64,000 bases of DNA from a virus. Both the position numbers and the translations under genes were made by a program. Under the pieces are notes generated by a model that saw only the letters and a program-made list of their open reading frames with translations, was not told where the DNA came from and did no database searches. The first letter of the stretch is position 1; each line of letters begins with the position of its first letter. The DNA lies in IMG/VR virus record IMGVR_UViG_3300033144_005525, positions 63,402 through 127,401 of that record; one strand, given 5' to 3'. Positions 43,917 through 49,635 of this stretch are shown in pieces.

Positions 43917-45503
43917 TTAGTTCTTCAGTGCGCCTAGAACTTTGGCGAACATAAGCCCCATACCACCACCAACTGCCGCTCCTGTTGCTGCAGCCGCTCC
44001 TGGGTGCTTACGTTTTTCCACAGCAAGACCGTGCTGGAATTGGGTCATCAGCTTACCGATACCAGAAGAGTATCCTGTGTCTCCCCTGGTCTTGTTGGCT
44101 TTGACGTCGGCCTCGAAAGCCACTTCGGATTTGCTCTTCCCACCCAAGCTCTTCTGAGGACGACTACCCAGATACGTCGACAGTCCGAGCATGGCAGCTC
44201 CGGCACCTGCAAGAGCTAGAGTTCCTGGATCTGTGATTCCCTTGGGAATAGCCTGCCTGATCGACGATGCAATCGAAGCCTGTTTAGTGAGGGGTCCAGG
44301 CAAGGTCACAGCCTTCTTAGGACCTTCTGTACGATCTATTAGATCGAGTCGAGCTTTCTTGTAGTTGGTGTACTTCTTCTTGAGGGAGCCCCACACGTCT
44401 TCAGCATTTTCGATGATGGCTGAATCCTCTTGCTGTGGGTATCTCTCTGCTGCTCTCTGTTTGACCTCAGCCAAAGAGAGAGCGGGCATGGGAGCCGCCA
44501 CTGCGGACTTCATGAACTTGCTGACACCAACTTGAGAACGTCCTGCTAGAGCTCCACCAATAGCTCCGGCACCAAGTCCTTTGAGTCCTGCAGCGACACG
44601 ACTCTCTCCAGGCTTGGCGAGGATGGCATTGATGGCACCCGTGCCTGCTCCCCAACCAGCAGCATTACCAATCGTGGATTTCCAAGCAGGGCTCAGCTTC
44701 TGAGCTGCTTGTCCAACGGCACCGAGAACACTAGCGTTCTTGCCCATGGGCTTTTTGACGATGGAGGGCATAACCCCAGCCTGTGGGATCTTCTTTGCCA
44801 CTTCACGAGTTGCTTGTCCCTTAGCTAATGCCTTAGCCAGGTCGTCGGTGGCATTAGATTTCGCTATGACTCCACCAGGACCGTGAATACTTTTGAAAGT
44901 ATCCATGCTTCGGGCGAGTTGTCGCTGGCCAATAACCCTGCTGGTGCTGTGCATACCTCCAAAACCACCACCGAAAGCACCGCCTATCAAGGCACCCTTC
45001 AAGGCACCTTTGGCACGCTTGCCCTTCTTGCTGCCTGCTGCACCTACTAGGGCTCCAGGAACTGCACCAAGTACGGACCCTCTGCCTGCAAAGCTCAGTG
45101 CGCGTAGAGCAGCGTTGGCCTTCTTCTCTTTTGGCTTTCTCTTCTTCCTTCTCTTGAAAAGAGATACGGCAGCCATAGACCCTAAGACTCCGCCTGCAGT
45201 AAGAACAGCCAAATTGGGCTTATAGGTATAGGGAGCGGGGAATGGGCTGTAGGCTTGTTTTTTCAGATCTGAATTGTCGGCAGTTACGACGGCATTCTTG
45301 GACTTCTTCGGGATGTCCGTGAGCTTGCTGAACCCTCGGTCAGACAGAAGAGGTCCACCTGTTCCATGCTCGTCTTCAAAGTCCGCCTTCTTGATCAGAG
45401 CCGGTTGGCCCTTCAACAAGAGATAGTGAGCTGCGCAATCATTGAACTCATCAGAACGCTGGGAAGCGCTCTTCATCAGTTCATAGAAATCAGCCCGCTT
45501 CAT
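43917..45503 (-). CDS. KxA-punctuated cationic Gly-zipper polyprotein (putative head cargo)
   Basis: modules begin after KQA, KKA, KNA, KSA, KQA. Confidence 0.7.
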   Translation of the reverse strand: MKRADFYELMKSASQRSDEFNDCAAHYLLLKGQPALIKKADFEDEHGTGGPLLSDRGFSKLTDIPKKSKNAVVTADNSDLKKQAYSPFPAPYTYKPNLAVLTAGGVLGSMAAVSLFKRRKKRKPKEKKANAALRALSFAGRGSVLGAVPGALVGAAGSKKGKRAKGALKGALIGGAFGGGFGGMHSTSRVIGQRQLARSMDTFKSIHGPGGVIAKSNATDDLAKALAKGQATREVAKKIPQAGVMPSIVKKPMGKNASVLGAVGQAAQKLSPAWKSTIGNAAGWGAGTGAINAILAKPGESRVAAGLKGLGAGAIGGALAGRSQVGVSKFMKSAVAAPMPALSLAEVKQRAAERYPQQEDSAIIENAEDVWGSLKKKYTNYKKARLDLIDRTEGPKKAVTLPGPLTKQASIASSIRQAIPKGITDPGTLALAGAGAAMLGLSTYLGSRPQKSLGGKSKSEVAFEADVKANKTRGDTGYSSGIGKLMTQFQHGLAVEKRKHPGAAAATGAAVGGGMGLMFAKVLGALKN

Positions 45504-45507
45504 GGCT

Positions 45508-46038
45508 CTACACCGTGTAGACGAGAATGAAGGCACCGTTGTCATCCAACAGCAAATGCTCCACCGTCAGCAAACCAACAGATCCTTTATTGCCGACAGC
45601 AGATGCACCTTCTGAGAATAGAAGGTCTTCATCTGTTGTGGCGCCAATGGCAGATGACCCTGGAGCAATACGCAAGGCATACCCTGGGTCGATCAGAGCG
45701 TGAGTGATGGTGAGCCTGTCTCCTGTGTTGGAGATGACGAACTCGGTAGGCAAGACGGCCCCATCCCAGCGAGCTCCTGTGTTGAGCTCGGCCAGGAGTG
45801 CAGCGATATTGGCATGAGGTCCCGCAGCACCCACCGTGAACGTTCTGCGAAACGCAGTCCAGGTATTCCCTCCGTCGGCGCTGCCCTCGACAACCAATAT
45901 CTCATTGACACTACCGAAAGTGAATCCGAAGGTCTGAACGCCACCTAGCAGTACGGCAGCGGCTGCAGCCGTCGTGATGAACTGCTCTAGATCAGCAGCA
46001 TTCTGGAAGACTCGGATTCTATGATCTGCGAGAGCCAT
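45508..46038 (-). CDS. virion decoration-like protein carrying a sheath-type inserted domain
   Basis: paralog of 46048-46194; insert similar to sheath 37840-38190. Confidence 0.65.
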   Translation of the reverse strand: MALADHRIRVFQNAADLEQFITTAAAAAVLLGGVQTFGFTFGSVNEILVVEGSADGGNTWTAFRRTFTVGAAGPHANIAALLAELNTGARWDGAVLPTEFVISNTGDRLTITHALIDPGYALRIAPGSSAIGATTDEDLLFSEGASAVGNKGSVGLLTVEHLLLDDNGAFILVYTV

Positions 46039-46047
46039 CGTTGTCTC

Positions 46048-46194
46048 CTAGGTGACATCGTAGAGCAGGATGAAGTATCCATTGTCGTCAGTGATGATCG
46101 TGATGATGGACGTAATCGCACCGTCCGTCCTGATGAACTGCTCCAACGAATTGACGTCCGGAAAGATCCTAATCCTGTGGTTCGGTTTCGCCAT
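46048..46194 (-). CDS. small virion protein (48 aa)
   Basis: MAKPNHRIRIF...DDNGYFILLY; TAATG-coupled start. Confidence 0.65.
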   Translation of the reverse strand: MAKPNHRIRIFPDVNSLEQFIRTDGAITSIITIITDDNGYFILLYDVT

Positions 46195-46217
46195 TACCAA
46201 CCCCCATAGAAGCCATT

Positions 46218-47030
46218 TTACCACCCCCCATAAAACCCGTTGGTCCAGCCATAGAGTGCCTCGGCAGCACGCACTTTGGGAAGGACATGTGAGAATTCCT
46301 CTTCGGTCATCTGTCCCGAATCGTAGACCCTGTGGTGGGTGGGACAAAGAACGAGGCAGTTCTCTTTTTCGATCGAACCGCCTTCTTTGACTGATTTGAT
46401 GTGAGCAAAGTCGAGAGTACGGTCTTCTCCACAGATCTCACAGCCATCAATGTTGAGTTCTTGGAAGACCTTGCGCTTCTTAGTGGAATGAGTCGAGAAA
46501 CGAAGATCTTTGGTGCGCCTCCAAGGAGCCTCGTGACCAACATCCTTCATGCGTCGGCAGATGACTCCATAGGAGACGTCATAGAGACGAGACAACTCTT
46601 CATAGGTCTTGCCTGCGTTGGAGAGTTGGACGGCCTCTTCAATGGGAATCTCTTGACGACGCCCATGATTGCGAGGACCGTTCGTCCACCTGTCTCTAGG
46701 GATGCTGAACCTCTCCATCCAGTCAATCCAGGTAGCGTAAGGGACCTTGTAGTGGCGGGCAGCAGAAGCAGCAGAGTCGAAGGCTGGGAGTGCTTCGAGC
46801 ATCCATTCACGAGTGGGCATGAACCCGGCGACTTTCTTCGTCCGCACCCCACCACTTCCTCGGCGCGGTACCTCATGTCGCTTGAGTAGTTGACGAACAC
46901 CTGGAATGGAGCAGCTCTCTTCCTTGGCAATCTCCAACGTCGACATCTCCCGATTCACATAGAAATCGATGATGCGTTCCGCATTGAGGCGTTGTTTTGG
47001 CATGACCCCTATGTTAGCACCAATTGCCAT
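46218..47030 (-). mobile_element. free-standing HNH homing endonuclease with N-terminal HTH repeats
   Basis: CEICG...AHI....GG....N.LVLCPTHHR; flanked by recoded copies of the host gene 3' end. Confidence 0.85.
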
Positions 47031-47039
47031 AGTAACAGG

Positions 47040-47555
47040 TCACCAACCTCCATAAAATCCATTGGTCCACAAATATTCTGAGTGTACTCCACCTCCCCAG
47101 GCCTGCTCGATGTTGATGGCTACCTTGAGACGTAGCTTCTTCGATTCGTAGTCATTCCGGAACAGCTGGATCCAGGCATGGTACAGCGGTGTCTTGTCGC
47201 TGATCCCTACCTGAATACCACCATCGGAGAAGGTGAGATGGTTACGAGTCATCAGCAAGCCCGCGGACTCGAGCAAGTTGATGACCGTGCCTCGAAGCAA
47301 GAGACGCCTCGAGGGGAAGTTGGTGATGCCTACCGGACCGATGAGGGGAGGAGTCGTGTTCCAGTCATCGATACAATCAGCAATCGCCCAGAGTACGAGT
47401 CTGGGCGAATGCTCGACGCCTTGGATCAGACGGTTTAGCTCGGCGTGGTCCCTCATGAACTCACGGACGAGACCTGCCATCTGCTCGAACGCTAACTGCT
47501 CAGCCGGTCGGAACCCTCCAAAGATATCGGAGCTGGTGCCTACAGTTGTTGACAC
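47040..47555 (-). CDS. putative head-tail adaptor (neck) protein
   Basis: position between capsid and neck genes; WNTTPP, RNHLTFSDGG. Confidence 0.6.
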   Translation of the reverse strand: MSTTVGTSSDIFGGFRPAEQLAFEQMAGLVREFMRDHAELNRLIQGVEHSPRLVLWAIADCIDDWNTTPPLIGPVGITNFPSRRLLLRGTVINLLESAGLLMTRNHLTFSDGGIQVGISDKTPLYHAWIQLFRNDYESKKLRLKVAINIEQAWGGGVHSEYLWTNGFYGGW

Positions 47556-47558
47556 TGG

Positions 47559-48020
47559 CTACCTCCGCTTCTTTTTTCGTCCTTTGGAATCTTCCTTGGT
47601 GTCGATCTCGACCACGTCCTTCGGCACAGACACCGTATCGGAGAAGCCCAAAGACACGACCTGCTTCGGCTGCTTGGAGACGACAGGGGCAGGAGTGGTT
47701 CCGATACCCAGTTCCCTCATGGCAGCCTCTTTGGCAGCGGTCTTCGCTCGAGCTGTCTTGAGGTTGGCCTGGATGTCTTCTGCAGAGAGAGTGACTCTGC
47801 CGCGCCGACGCTCCTTGTAGTCCTGGTACCAGGTGGGAACTTTGCCGATGGAGATGTATCCAGCCTCCTCGAGCTTGCGCATCTTGGCGTCGACGTACCT
47901 GGCGTCCACACGAAGACTCAGCCCTGGCCGGAGCTCCTTGTTGAAGATACGGACTCCAGAAGGTCGGAACTTCTCCTCATCCTTCGGGACATCCGTAATG
48001 TTGGTGATCAGAACGATCAT
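47559..48020 (-). CDS. hypothetical virion-associated protein
   Basis: ORF in the structural operon; basic C-terminus. Confidence 0.55.
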   Translation of the reverse strand: MIVLITNITDVPKDEEKFRPSGVRIFNKELRPGLSLRVDARYVDAKMRKLEEAGYISIGKVPTWYQDYKERRRGRVTLSAEDIQANLKTARAKTAAKEAAMRELGIGTTPAPVVSKQPKQVVSLGFSDTVSVPKDVVEIDTKEDSKGRKKKRR

Positions 48021-48030
48021 GAGGGGCCCC

Positions 48031-48435
48031 CTATCTTTTCCCTCTTTTGGACTTCTTCCCCTTCGGTCGCTCGACCTGGGTAACATCCTCAGAGGGCTGG
48101 AACTCCGGAACTGGTTCCGGTAGCGGAGGTGGCTCTGGTGTGGTCTCTGGCTCCTCGGGAGCCTCCACAGGTGCCTCCGGCGTCGGGGCGACCGGAGCCG
48201 TAGATTCTTGTTTGGGTGCTTGAGAGCCGGACCGCTTAGCTGTCAGGACTCCCTGCTTCACACAGAGATCGATGCGGACCTTGTTGGTCGCATAGGATTC
48301 ATCACTGATGGTGAGCTTCTGTCGCAGCCGGATCCGGACACCCGCAATTGTGGGCTCCATCTCCATACGAGGCGCCACACGACGCTTCATGGCGTGCGTT
48401 GGGTTTAACGCTACGTTTTCCAGTTCCCAAGGCAT
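48031..48435 (-). CDS. hypothetical virion-associated protein, Pro/Glu-rich
   Basis: RBS GGAGG; downstream of the MCP. Confidence 0.6.
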   Translation of the reverse strand: MPWELENVALNPTHAMKRRVAPRMEMEPTIAGVRIRLRQKLTISDESYATNKVRIDLCVKQGVLTAKRSGSQAPKQESTAPVAPTPEAPVEAPEEPETTPEPPPLPEPVPEFQPSEDVTQVERPKGKKSKRGKR

Positions 48436-48466
48436 CCGAACCTCCAGTACGACGAAGAAAGCATGG

Positions 48467-48498
48467 AAGAAAACCCGGGGCCCGTGAGGGCCCCAGGC
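48467..48498 (-). terminator. terminator after the major capsid gene
   Basis: CCTGGGGCCC/GGGCCCCGGG then TTTTCTT. Confidence 0.75.
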
Positions 48499-48513
48499 AT
48501 TCAGTTTCGACGA

Positions 48514-49635
48514 CTAGAACTGCGAGACGTCCGGGAACTTCAGCCCGTCGTCCACACGGTTGTTCACCGCTCCGAGCTCATCCTCTGCCACCGGCAGCTT
48601 GGCTGCGAAGCCCGTGTCCGTTGCGGTCGGGGTGACCGAACCGGCGTAGAGCTCCAGCTTCCGCACCGAGGCCACGTTGATGATCGAAATGGCGATGTCC
48701 ATCCAGGACTGCCACGTGATCATGTTGGCGACTTTGTCGATGTAGAACTTGGTGTTGTTGAGGATGTAGTTCTTGCCCAGGAACTCCGGGGCCGTGAAGA
48801 CGTAGACATTTCCCGTGCGGAGGATGTCGGTCTTGATGGTCCGGATGAGCTTGCGGCCGAGGAGGACGTTGTACTTGTAGCCGTCGACCATCGTCTCCGA
48901 CTGCATCTTGTCACCCATGTCCTGGAGGGTCCAAGACAGGATGTCGTCGTAGTCTGGCTCGGTCATGAGGAACCGCTCCGAGCGCAGACGGTTGCCGTCT
49001 AGCAGCTTGAAGAGGTTGACCAGGTCCGGCCGCAGGATCGGCTGCACCGTGAAGGTGATGCCACCCAGAGTGAGGGCACCGGTGCCCTTGATGACTGCCG
49101 ACTGCACGACTCCGCCACTGTTGACGTCGTCGGCCCGGAGAGCCGTCGCTGAGCCACCGTTGGCTTCGGTCTGGAGACCCTGACACGCCGACTCGATGTG
49201 GCGTGTGAACTCACGGTCCTTGATCTCCTGCAGATCCTTCACCGAGTTGTCCTCGATGATCTTGGTGATCGGCATCTCGTAGGCGAGGAGCTCCTGCTCC
49301 GTCTTCTCGAACTTCTCCGAGCTGACGGTGTAGAAAGGCACCTCTGCCCTCGGGGCACGGATGAACCGAGCCGTCGGCTGACCACGGAAGGTCAGGGTCA
49401 TCGCACGAGACTGGGGCTCGATGTCGACGATCTTGACCAGGGTGTCGTGGTTCACCGACCGCTGGCAGTCGGCCCGGGTGACCGGGTCGGGCGGGATGAT
49501 CTTGTCCACGTAGCAGACCTCACGGAGGCGGTCACGGATGTAGACGCTGCCCAGGGCAGCGACCTTCTCCTTGCCTTCGGAGGTGTCGAGGTTTTGCGCG
49601 AACATGTCGTTGAGAACTCGTGCCGGAACGCTCAT
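48514..49635 (-). CDS. major capsid protein
   Basis: 373 aa; strongly biased codon use; IRDRLRE...IIPP N-arm, DLQEIKD.EF spine helix; order protease-scaffold-decoration-MCP-terminator. Confidence 0.8.
   Translation of the reverse strand: MSVPARVLNDMFAQNLDTSEGKEKVAALGSVYIRDRLREVCYVDKIIPPDPVTRADCQRSVNHDTLVKIVDIEPQSRAMTLTFRGQPTARFIRAPRAEVPFYTVSSEKFEKTEQELLAYEMPITKIIEDNSVKDLQEIKDREFTRHIESACQGLQTEANGGSATALRADDVNSGGVVQSAVIKGTGALTLGGITFTVQPILRPDLVNLFKLLDGNRLRSERFLMTEPDYDDILSWTLQDMGDKMQSETMVDGYKYNVLLGRKLIRTIKTDILRTGNVYVFTAPEFLGKNYILNNTKFYIDKVANMITWQSWMDIAISIINVASVRKLELYAGSVTPTATDTGFAAKLPVAEDELGAVNNRVDDGLKFPDVSQF

What the first reader, a model, noticed from the sequence alone, without database searches (positions are those of the whole stretch)
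46194..47069. HNH endonuclease amid three synonymously recoded copies of its host gene's 3' end
Seen: the adaptor gene ends WTNGFYGGW* (47040-47069, TGG ACC AAT GGA TTT TAT GGA GGT TGG TGA). The HNH ORF also ends WTNGFYGGW* (46218-46247, TGG ACC AAC GGG TTT TAT GGG GGG TGG TAA). A third copy, NGFYGGW*, follows immediately (46194-46217, AAT GGC TTC TAT GGG GGT TGG TAA), and its TAA overlaps the ATG of the next gene. All differences are synonymous. Inference: the last copy is the ancestral end. An intronless homing element inserted within the gene and supplied a recoded, cleavage-immune replacement tail, probably through repeated invasions. The structural C-terminal tail on the HNH might even recruit it to the neck.
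Basis: partly seen in the sequence, partly recalled or inferred. Interest (0 to 1): 0.75.

Follow-up and report, generated by a model that had tools for sequence, protein, structure and literature searches.

The report
Homing endonuclease duplicating its host gene's tail
A selfish HNH nuclease gene has inserted into the last ten codons of a phage head-to-tail adaptor gene, bringing a replacement ending and leaving two displaced endings behind. This arrangement is well known for mobile endonuclease genes in fungal mitochondria, but I found no description of it in phages.

Summary
Three copies of the adaptor's C-terminal coding tail lie at exactly the stated coordinates, and every nucleotide difference between them is synonymous. 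The pattern matches 3 times against 0.01 expected by chance.

- About 60 HNH-free relatives carry a single tail.
- The closest relative, L016, ends TGGTAATGGCG, the same stop/start overlap that follows copy C. Copy C is therefore the in-place ancestral remnant.
- The HNH (three helix-turn-helix modules plus an intact HNH motif) occurs patchily at this same junction in several diverged phage lineages.
- Many homologues also end in an adaptor-type tail that matches adaptor tail types seen among the relatives.
- An independent contig (L009) has copy A, the HNH and copy B, with B followed by the native intergenic motif.
- The functional tail (copy A) in three HNH-bearing genomes shares the synonymous codons AAT and TTT, which are rare in HNH-free tails (3/3 versus 1/32).

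This is therefore a free-standing homing endonuclease cassette that carries a replacement tail. The window records at least two successive, imprecise invasions.

Three things remain unproven: cleavage immunity, the position of the cut site, and any function for the tail on the HNH. That tail is modelled as disordered, and homologues carry substitutions never seen in real adaptors.

The closest analogue is the C-terminal duplication made by mobile endonuclease ORFs in fungal mitochondria. I rate it a new variant of a known kind, of moderate interest.

The parts
47040..47555 (-). Head-to-tail adaptor-like gene (171 aa), complete with its own stop codon
   Evidence: ORF. Large family, 1615 homologues at E<=1e-5. 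AF2 model mean pLDDT 74. Twelve of the 13 best structural matches are chains from phage portal-tail, connector or neck entries, Z 7.8-10. It lies in the virion module downstream of the major capsid gene.
47040..47069 (-). Copy A: the functional tail WTNGFYGGW + TGA. Probably supplied with the HNH cassette.
   Evidence: GC3 is 0.40 over the last 10 codons against 0.70 in the preceding 100 codons of the gene. AAT+TTT codons are shared with the A tails of the HNH-bearing L009 and L007 but occur in only 1/32 HNH-free tails.
47031..47039 (-). 9-nt spacer CCTGTTACT between the adaptor stop and the first ATG of the HNH ORF. Left part of the cassette.
   Evidence: The spacer ends ACT-ATG in the three HNH-bearing lineages WIN, L009 and L007. 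HNH-free relatives have unrelated sequence here.
46218..47030 (-). HTH-HNH homing endonuclease ORF (270 aa). The biological start may be the second ATG at 47003 (MPKQ...).
   Evidence: PF13391 HNH_2 at 24.1 bits (cut-off 21) and PHROG HNH families. Invariant CxxC...H...N...CxxHH columns. Homologues align from the MP.QK region.
46542..46982 (-). Three helix-turn-helix DNA-binding modules (residues about 17-163)
   Evidence: AF2 model: three three-helix modules separated by low-confidence linkers. Weak HTH_23 hit.
46251..46484 (-). HNH nuclease domain (residues about 183-260), ending in a helix ...AEALY
   Evidence: Weak PDB sequence matches to the HNH domains of TagI, McrA and IscB.
46218..46247 (-). 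Copy B: a displaced adaptor tail WTNGFYGGW + TAA, now the C-terminus of the HNH ORF
   Evidence: Residues 263-270 have pLDDT <50 and no secondary structure. The same kind of tail is present on HNH homologues P0002-P0006, P0009 and the L009 HNH.
46194..46217 (-). Copy C: a truncated in-place ancestral tail NGFYGGW + TAA, untranslated, with its stop overlapping the next gene's ATG
   Evidence: The 11-mer TGGTAATGGCG is identical to the adaptor/next-gene junction of the closest HNH-free relative L016.
46048..46197 (-). Small 49-aa virion-module gene, the conserved downstream neighbour of the adaptor gene
   Evidence: A 45-51-aa gene ending ...ILFY-like follows the adaptor in the HNH-free relatives inspected in detail, L001-L006, L016 and L017.

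Best explanation
A free-standing homing endonuclease gene (three HTH modules plus an HNH nuclease) sits inside the last ~10 codons of a conserved head-to-tail adaptor gene. The mobile cassette consists of a replacement adaptor tail with its stop (copy A), a short leader, and the HNH ORF.

The HNH ORF has no stop of its own and reads into the displaced native tail of the invaded gene (copy B). The adaptor therefore stays intact, and the nuclease acquires a 9-residue passenger tail.

The likely origin is as follows. The nuclease cuts HNH-free alleles in or near the conserved tail-coding DNA. The break is repaired from an HNH-bearing co-infecting genome. The left side resolves by homology within the adaptor gene. 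The right side, where the next gene is poorly conserved, resolves within or next to the tail itself.

In this genome the cassette arrived already carrying copy B from an earlier host. It was joined imprecisely into the resident tail between the T and N codons. That left the truncated resident tail (copy C) still attached to the next gene by its TAATG overlap.

Shown: the anatomy, the empty sites in relatives, the patchy distribution, the family-wide tail, and that C is ancestral and in place.

Inferred: cleavage of empty alleles, the position of the cut, the repair pathway, the order of events, and that A's synonymous variants protect it.
For: 1. The anatomy is confirmed and far exceeds chance.

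2. The HNH motif is intact and there are three HTH modules.

3. Empty sites exist. About 60 distinct relatives carry one tail followed by the small gene. The closest, L016 (83% aa), ends TGGTAATGGCG, the same sequence as copy C plus the next gene.

4. The HNH occurs patchily at the same junction in diverged lineages: WIN, L009/L043, L007, L010/L011, L071, L078 and L079.

5. L009 has A + HNH + B and no C. Its B is followed by the CCCTTCCCA intergenic motif typical of HNH-free relatives, so there B is the native tail.

6. HNH homologues end in tails that match adaptor tail types. Examples are WTNGFYGGW; FRFINNFYGEW (P0023), which is the adaptor tail of the L007 clade; and YG+EW/DW/GW. The distant clade's HNHs end ...KYGKN with no tail.

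7. All differences among A, B and C are synonymous. The copies therefore diverged while each was under selection as coding sequence, that is, in different genomes.

8. The A tails of three HNH-bearing genomes share AAT+TTT, against 1/32 HNH-free tails (Fisher p=6e-4). They also show a GC3 drop relative to the gene body, 0.40 vs 0.70 and 0.50 vs 0.76, and a conserved ...ACT-ATG leader.

9. No group I intron was found. No promoter or terminator match lies inside the adaptor-to-HNH stretch; one weak terminator-like match lies within the 176-aa gene downstream.

10. The same architecture is documented for mobile endonuclease ORFs in fungal mitochondria (PMC3630166).
Against: - No biochemical data exist. 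The target site, nick versus double-strand break, and immunity are all unknown.
- Copy C is seen only in this contig.
- The nearest HNH-free relative is only about 77% identical in DNA, so no co-conversion tract could be delimited.
- The tail-versus-body GC3 contrast across all 7 HNH-bearing loci is only suggestive (p=0.096).
- The AAT/TTT test rests on three HNH-bearing genomes.
- The B/C junction shows no microhomology, so the joining mechanism is unexplained.
- A tail conserved across 30-50%-identical HNH homologues could also mean that the tail is selected for a function.
Confidence: 0.75

Rival explanations
1. The adaptor-type tail on the HNH is a selected, functional peptide. It mimics the adaptor's portal-binding C-terminal arm and docks the nuclease at the portal or neck. 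It co-evolves with the adaptor tail. The DNA duplications are secondary.
For: Tails with the same aromatic spacing (Y-x-[WF]-x4-[YF]-x2-W) persist on HNH homologues only 30-50% identical to this one. The reading frame into the tail is kept in many lineages. The host gene resembles portal adaptors, whose C-terminal arms bind portal (general knowledge, not tested here).
Against: Copy C is untranslated and truncated, which mimicry does not explain. In L009, B is followed by the native intergenic sequence, so it is displaced host DNA. HNH tails carry G->D (P0004) and G->P (P0009) at a position that is G, N or S in 106/106 adaptor tails. Several family members lack any tail (L010, L078, P0011-13). 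The tail is modelled as a disordered appendage.
Confidence: 0.08
2. Local tandem or segmental duplication by replication slippage within this genome, followed by drift. The HNH merely landed between the repeats.
For: B and C are directly tandem with a 24-nt period.
Against: Eleven of 11 pairwise sense-codon differences are synonymous, although C is non-coding and B is dispensable for the adaptor. An independent contig has A/HNH/B. The HNH-borne tail occurs in many homologues. HNH-free relatives never show duplicated tails.
Confidence: 0.04
3. The HNH is not a selfish homing element. It is a resident accessory nuclease, for example a packaging-associated HNH like those that assist terminases, which happens to be encoded after the adaptor gene.
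For: HNH proteins that work with terminase and portal exist in phages (general knowledge). This gene lies in the late structural operon, with no terminator in the adaptor-to-HNH stretch.
Against: It is absent from about 85% of related loci, including the closest relative. It interrupts a conserved stop/start-overlapped gene pair. It has three HTH modules of the kind that read long asymmetric sites. There is one copy in the genome, and it is not next to a terminase.
Confidence: 0.08
4. Copy C, or the whole arrangement, is a metagenome assembly artefact.
For: This is a single metagenomic contig. No public run could be listed to verify the junction.
Against: The three copies differ from one another, so a collapsed or expanded repeat is unlikely. 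A/HNH/B recurs on an independent contig from another sample, recovered from two collections as L009 and L043. It also recurs in six independent protein clusters. Copy C joins seamlessly to the conserved TAATGGCG junction.
Confidence: 0.05

Closest known systems
Mobile endonuclease ORFs (mORFs) of fungal mitochondria that create C-terminal duplications or 'gene hybrids' (Allomyces macrogynus atp6; Glomus atp6, atp9, cox2, nad3; PMC3630166)
   Same: An endonuclease ORF is inserted in the 3' end of a conserved gene. An inserted C-terminal copy completes the host gene upstream of the ORF. The native C-terminal remnant is left downstream. The copies are diverged in DNA but nearly identical in protein. 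[quoted passage not shown]
   Different: The host is a bacteriophage and the target is a virion gene. The nuclease is HTH-HNH rather than LAGLIDADG or GIY-YIG. The duplicated segment is only 7-10 codons. Here the endonuclease ORF reads into the displaced tail rather than being fused to the host gene upstream. Three nested copies record serial events. The trait is shared by a whole HNH family across diverged phages.
Free-standing homing endonucleases of T4-like phages (Seg and Mob proteins; 'intronless homing'; PMC2988022)
   Same: A stand-alone nuclease gene lies between conserved genes and is patchily distributed among relatives. It is presumed to spread by break repair with co-conversion of flanking markers. 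MobE is also an HNH enzyme.
   Different: The T4 review text contains no word beginning 'duplicat'. Those elements lie in intergenic positions and are flanked by homology on both sides. Here the element carries part of the target gene and leaves displaced copies of it.
mobE insertion that splits nrdA of phage Aeh1 into a 'genes-in-pieces' reductase (Friedrich et al. 2007, cited in PMC2988022)
   Same: A free-standing HNH gene is inserted inside the coding sequence of an essential phage gene without destroying its function.
   Different: There the host gene is split into two polypeptides that reassemble. Here the host gene is kept whole by a duplicated, replacement 3' end.

Membership tests
HNH (beta-beta-alpha-Me) endonucleases, Pfam HNH_2 PF13391 / HNH PF01844 | Profile match above the curated cut-off | tested here: met
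   PF13391 scores 24.1 bits against a cut-off of 21. PF01844 scores 20.3 against 21.4, just below. There are several PHROG HNH families, the best at E=2.4e-12.
HNH (beta-beta-alpha-Me) endonucleases, Pfam HNH_2 PF13391 / HNH PF01844 | Catalytic His...Asn...His and Cys zinc ligands conserved | tested here: met
   C197, C200, D207, H210, N224, C229, H232 and H233 are invariant in 13 homologues. The modelled domain has two short strands followed by a helix.
Free-standing homing endonuclease genes (intronless homing) | Presence/absence polymorphism at one locus among related genomes | tested here: met
   The HNH is present in WIN, L009, L007, L010, L071, L078 and L079. It is absent from about 60 other adaptor loci, including the closest relative L016.
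Free-standing homing endonuclease genes (intronless homing) | Not embedded in an intron or intein | tested here: met
   No Rfam family matched at E<=1 in 45500-47800. The adaptor ORF ends with its own stop 9 nt before the HNH ATG.
Free-standing homing endonuclease genes (intronless homing) | Site-specific cleavage of the endonuclease-free allele and resistance of the endonuclease-bearing allele | not testable with these tools
   This needs enzyme assays. The only indirect hint is that AAT+TTT occurs in the A tails of 3/3 HNH-bearing genomes against 1/32 HNH-free.
Free-standing homing endonuclease genes (intronless homing) | Co-conversion of flanking host sequence | tested here: inconclusive
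   Tail A has foreign-looking GC3 (0.40 vs 0.70). The nearest HNH-free relative is only about 77% identical in DNA, so no tract boundary can be seen.
mORF-type C-terminal duplication / gene hybrid (fungal mitochondria) | Inserted C-terminal copy upstream of the endonuclease ORF and native C-terminal remnant downstream | tested here: met
   Copy A lies upstream and copies B and C downstream. C keeps the ancestral TAATGGCG junction.
mORF-type C-terminal duplication / gene hybrid (fungal mitochondria) | Copies diverged in DNA but conserved in protein | tested here: met
   There are 3-4 differences per pair and all are synonymous.
mORF-type C-terminal duplication / gene hybrid (fungal mitochondria) | Foreign origin of the inserted C-terminal copy shown by phylogeny | tested here: inconclusive
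   Twenty-seven nucleotides are too few for a tree. The supporting hints are the shared AAT/TTT codons, the TGA stop and the ACT-ATG leader with L009.
Group I intron-encoded homing endonuclease | Ribozyme core flanking the ORF and an interrupted host reading frame | tested here: not met
   No Rfam match. The host ORF is uninterrupted and complete, as in HNH-free relatives.
Phage head-to-tail (portal) adaptor proteins | Fold resembles solved adaptor or neck proteins | tested here: met
   In VIA-align against 48,161 chains, 12 of the 13 best are chains from phage portal-tail, connector or neck entries (9nwi_A Z 10.0, T4 gp13/gp14 9lu4_D Z 9.3, 7z47_A Z 9.0, 8zkk_B Z 8.6 and others). Caveat: for helical models Z<13 can be a common arrangement, and Foldseek found nothing.

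The most novel reading that the evidence does not exclude
The adaptor-derived tail on the HNH is not just a passenger. It acts as a portal- or neck-docking peptide that co-evolves with the adaptor's own C-terminal arm. That would place a homing nuclease at the packaging vertex, or inside virions, so that it could meet the DNA of co-infecting relatives. This would be a selfish element borrowing a structural protein's address label.

A milder novel reading is that copy B is kept because it serves the element as a portable right-hand homology arm next to a hypervariable downstream gene. I put that at roughly 0.35.
Probability: 0.08. Interest if true: 0.8.

Novelty: new variant of a known kind. 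Interest (0 to 1): 0.5.

Why it matters
It shows that a phage homing endonuclease can live inside an essential structural gene without an intron or intein, by carrying a spare copy of the gene's ending. This is the trick known from fungal mitochondrial mobile ORFs.

The nested tails act as a fossil record. They point to where the enzyme probably cuts, within the last ~30 nt of the adaptor gene, and to how imprecise repair reshapes gene ends.

The locus also offers a clean test bed. The empty, recoded and displaced alleles are all known in sequence, so target-site immunity by synonymous change can be tested directly.

For annotation, it explains why some HNH proteins end in a foreign, aromatic-rich peptide.

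Tried and rejected
The contigs of the closest HNH homologues P0002-P0009 could not be inspected for tail copy number.
- **The look-up of sequencing runs:** none was listed, so no read-level check of copy C and no search for empty-site variants in the source sample.
- **Phage GenBank collection:** no DNA match. There were only distant protein matches of the adaptor, 26-30% identity to Salmonella phage Arash and Vibrio phages.
- **HNH single-protein scan of viral contigs:** nothing. The alignment scan gave 7 loci.
- **Genome-contig scan:** only remote HNH domains, none next to adaptors.
- **Tail-pattern scan of viral contigs:** only loci already known.
- **Foldseek against PDB for the adaptor:** no match at E<=0.001.
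- **Rfam:** none.
- **Promoter scan:** none in 45400-48600. TTGACA-N17-TAnnnT boxes seen by eye just after the adaptor stop in L009 and L007 are degenerate in the window.
- **Degraded HNH remnants:** searched in HNH-free loci with odd tails or extra DNA (L006, L023, L019) with 40 HNH queries at E<=1. Only the shared tail matched.
- **Co-conversion tract:** window against L016 by sliding identity is uninformative at about 77% DNA identity.
- **Microhomology or slippage at the B/C junction:** the AATGGC repeats would give a 22-nt period, not the observed 24-nt period. Rejected.
- **Own-genome pattern search:** failed for technical reasons. The window search was used instead.
Full report
**Observation**

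The window is part of a 191-kb uncultured virus contig, and the genes concerned are on the minus strand.
- The 171-aa ORF 47040-47555 ends WTNGFYGGW-TGA (copy A).
- Nine nucleotides later the 270-aa ORF 46218-47030 begins. It ends ...AEALYG-WTNGFYGGW-TAA (copy B).
- Directly after that stop and in the same frame comes AAT GGC TTC TAT GGG GGT TGG TAA (copy C, NGFYGGW*).
- The TAA of copy C overlaps the ATG of a 49-aa gene, 46048-46197.

A degenerate pattern for FYGGW-stop hits exactly these three sites in 64 kb, against 0.01 expected. A/B differ at 4 sense positions, B/C at 4 and A/C at 3, and all differences are synonymous. Only about 19% of random changes in these codons would be synonymous, so P is about 1e-3 per pair.

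**What the genes are**

The 270-aa protein matches HNH_2 above Pfam's cut-off and several PHROG HNH families.
- In 13 homologues the CxxC...H...N...CxxHH columns are invariant.
- An AlphaFold model shows three three-helix (HTH) modules, flexible linkers, and an HNH domain whose last helix ends at ...AEALY.
- The nine tail residues that follow have pLDDT below 50 and no secondary structure.
- The nearest solved sequences are the HNH domains of TagI, McrA and IscB, all weak matches.

The 171-aa protein has no Pfam or PHROG family, but it belongs to a large family of 1615 proteins. Its model (pLDDT 74) finds no Foldseek match. In an exhaustive alignment against 48,161 chains, 12 of the 13 best hits are chains from phage portal-tail, connector or neck entries: Pa223, T4 gp13/gp14, SU10, VP1, KHP30, A4, P1, P-SCSP1u and others, at Z 7.8-10. 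These Z values are modest for a helical protein. The consistency of the hits and the gene's position just after the capsid gene support the label 'adaptor'.

**Empty sites in relatives**

Relatives of the adaptor were fetched from viral contigs and metagenomes. In about 60 distinct loci the gene ends once, with W[TVA][NSA]GFYGG[WY] or a clade variant such as RF[IV]NNFYGEW or FFVNGWYG[VI]Y. It is followed by the next virion gene.

The closest relative is L016, 83% identical in protein. It ends ...GGC TGG TAA TGG CG, with its stop overlapping the next gene's ATG. The same 11-mer, TGGTAATGGCG, joins copy C to the 49-aa gene in the window. Copy C is therefore the resident, ancestral tail, truncated at its 5' side and still in place.

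**The HNH is a patchy insertion at one junction**

The same HNH family sits immediately after the adaptor gene in WIN, L009 (= L043), L007 (contig end), L010/L011, L071, L078 and L079. Their adaptors are only 45-64% identical to the window's, and each has closer HNH-free relatives.
- There is one HNH_2 gene in the whole contig.
- Rfam finds no intron.
- The consensus scan finds no promoter in 45400-48600 and no terminator match within the adaptor-to-HNH stretch.
- The leader after the adaptor stop ends ...ACT-ATG in WIN, L009 and L007.
- L009 and L007 share a TTGACA-N17-TAnnnT box there, which is degenerate in the window.

**The tail on the HNH is a family trait derived from the host gene**

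Six closer homologues (P0002-P0006, P0009) and the L009 HNH end in W[TA]N[GDP]FYGGW. Others end in YG followed by EW, DW or GW. P0023 ends FRFINNFYGEW, which is exactly the adaptor tail of the L007 clade. More distant representatives keep the same aromatic spacing.

In the most distant clade (L010, L078) the HNH ends ...KYGKN or ...KYGGN with no tail. The native HNH C-terminus is therefore about ...ALYG, and the tail is an addition.

In L009, copy B is followed by CCCTTCCCA, the intergenic motif that follows the single tail in HNH-free relatives. There B is simply the displaced native tail, and A is the copy that came with the element.

In the window, B is followed by C rather than by native downstream DNA. 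B must therefore have travelled with the cassette from an earlier host. This makes at least two successive events the simplest history.

**Is copy A 'recoded'?**

- The A tails of WIN, L009 and L007 all use AAT (Asn) and TTT (Phe). Only 1 of 32 HNH-free tails does (Fisher p=6e-4; p=0.003 when restricted to tails with N and F).
- The last 10 codons of WIN and L009, which contain tail A, have GC3 of 0.40 and 0.50, against 0.70 and 0.76 in the preceding 100 codons of each gene. Across all seven HNH-bearing loci the contrast is only suggestive (p=0.096).
- WIN and L009 also share GGA GGT TGG TGA.

This fits a tail inherited with the element, and possibly selected for resistance. Immunity itself is untested. 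Ordinary divergence between orthologous tails also yields purely synonymous differences.

**Is the tail on the HNH functional?**

The evidence leans against this.
- The tail is outside the modelled fold.
- Some family members lack it.
- P0004 and P0009 carry D and P at a position that is G (94), N (11) or S (1) in 106 adaptor tails.
- P0009 shares a contig length of 15,003 nt with the adaptor P0197. If they lie on the same contig, which I could not verify, P0009's tail differs from that adaptor's tail at two residues.

Persistence of the tail across distant homologues can be explained if B is regularly re-sampled from functional native tails at each homing event. It could also persist because it provides homology next to a poorly conserved downstream gene. 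Both ideas are inferences.

**Mechanism proposed**

The enzyme recognises the conserved tail-coding DNA of empty alleles through its HTH modules and cuts nearby. The left end invades the donor's adaptor gene and copies tail A, the leader and the HNH. The right end is captured within or beside the tail.
- Ancestrally this capture was at the Tyr codon shared by the HNH's ...ALY and the adaptor's ...EY-LWT. That gave the in-frame HNH-tail fusion, seen as ALYL-WTNGFYGGW in L009 and P0005.
- In the window's lineage a later event joined B's stop directly to the resident AAT GGC..., leaving C.
- The B/C junction shows no microhomology, and a slippage origin would give a 22-nt rather than a 24-nt period. 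This step remains unexplained.

**Comparison with known systems**

The closest match is the mobile endonuclease ORF of fungal mitochondria. It inserts in the 3' end of atp6, atp9, cox2 or nad3, brings a foreign C-terminal copy, and leaves the native one downstream, diverged in DNA but conserved in protein (PMC3630166).

The T4 Seg and Mob 'intronless homing' elements share the free-standing life style. The T4 review text contains no word beginning 'duplicat' (PMC2988022). My literature searches found no phage example. That is absence from the held library, not proof of absence.

I therefore rate this as a new variant of a known kind.

**Limits**

- Copy C rests on one contig.
- The statistics on A tails rest on three HNH-bearing genomes.
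- No cleavage data exist.

Noticed in passing
window 45508-46038 (-) and 46048-46197 (-); L016:1688-2374: The 176-aa gene is a paralogue of the 49-aa gene. It has the same MA..HR.R.F start and the same ...DDNG.FIL.Y end, with about 125 aa inserted between them. In the closest relative L016 the order is adaptor, 176-aa, 48-aa. In the window it is adaptor, HNH, 49-aa, 176-aa. L017 has only the small gene directly after the adaptor. The pair may therefore have been reshuffled near the HNH insertion site.
   Followed up: partly
L006:4483-4732 (= L044, L096): An HNH-free relative has about 250 nt of extra DNA between the adaptor stop (TGATG overlap) and the small gene. Its tail has an unusually low GC3 (0.50 vs 0.78), like the HNH-bearing genomes. 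No HNH remnant was detectable. It could be a different insertion or the scar of a lost element.
   Followed up: partly
L047:2992-3609, L049:2966-3502, L034, L040, L042 (just after the adaptor stop): Other relatives carry unrelated extra ORFs (about 180-205 aa, Gly/Ala/Lys-rich) or different genes directly after the adaptor stop. The adaptor 3' junction therefore looks like a general hot spot for insertions.
   Followed up: no
L010, L071, L078, L079, about 45-70 nt after the adaptor stop: In the distant clade, a conserved GGTATAAG box followed by GGAGG and ATG-GG precedes the HNH coding region. L010 and L078 also have TTGACA-N17-TAAAnn formed across the adaptor stop. This suggests the cassette brings its own promoter.
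   Followed up: no
window 48473-48498 (-): A strong GC-rich hairpin followed by a T-run lies just after the major capsid gene (11 pairs, 9 G-C). It is the only convincing terminator-like site in 45400-48600.
   Followed up: no
window 47003 (-): The annotated first ATG of the HNH ORF (47030) may not be the real start. Homologues align from the second ATG (MPKQ...), which is preceded by GGGG.
   Followed up: partly
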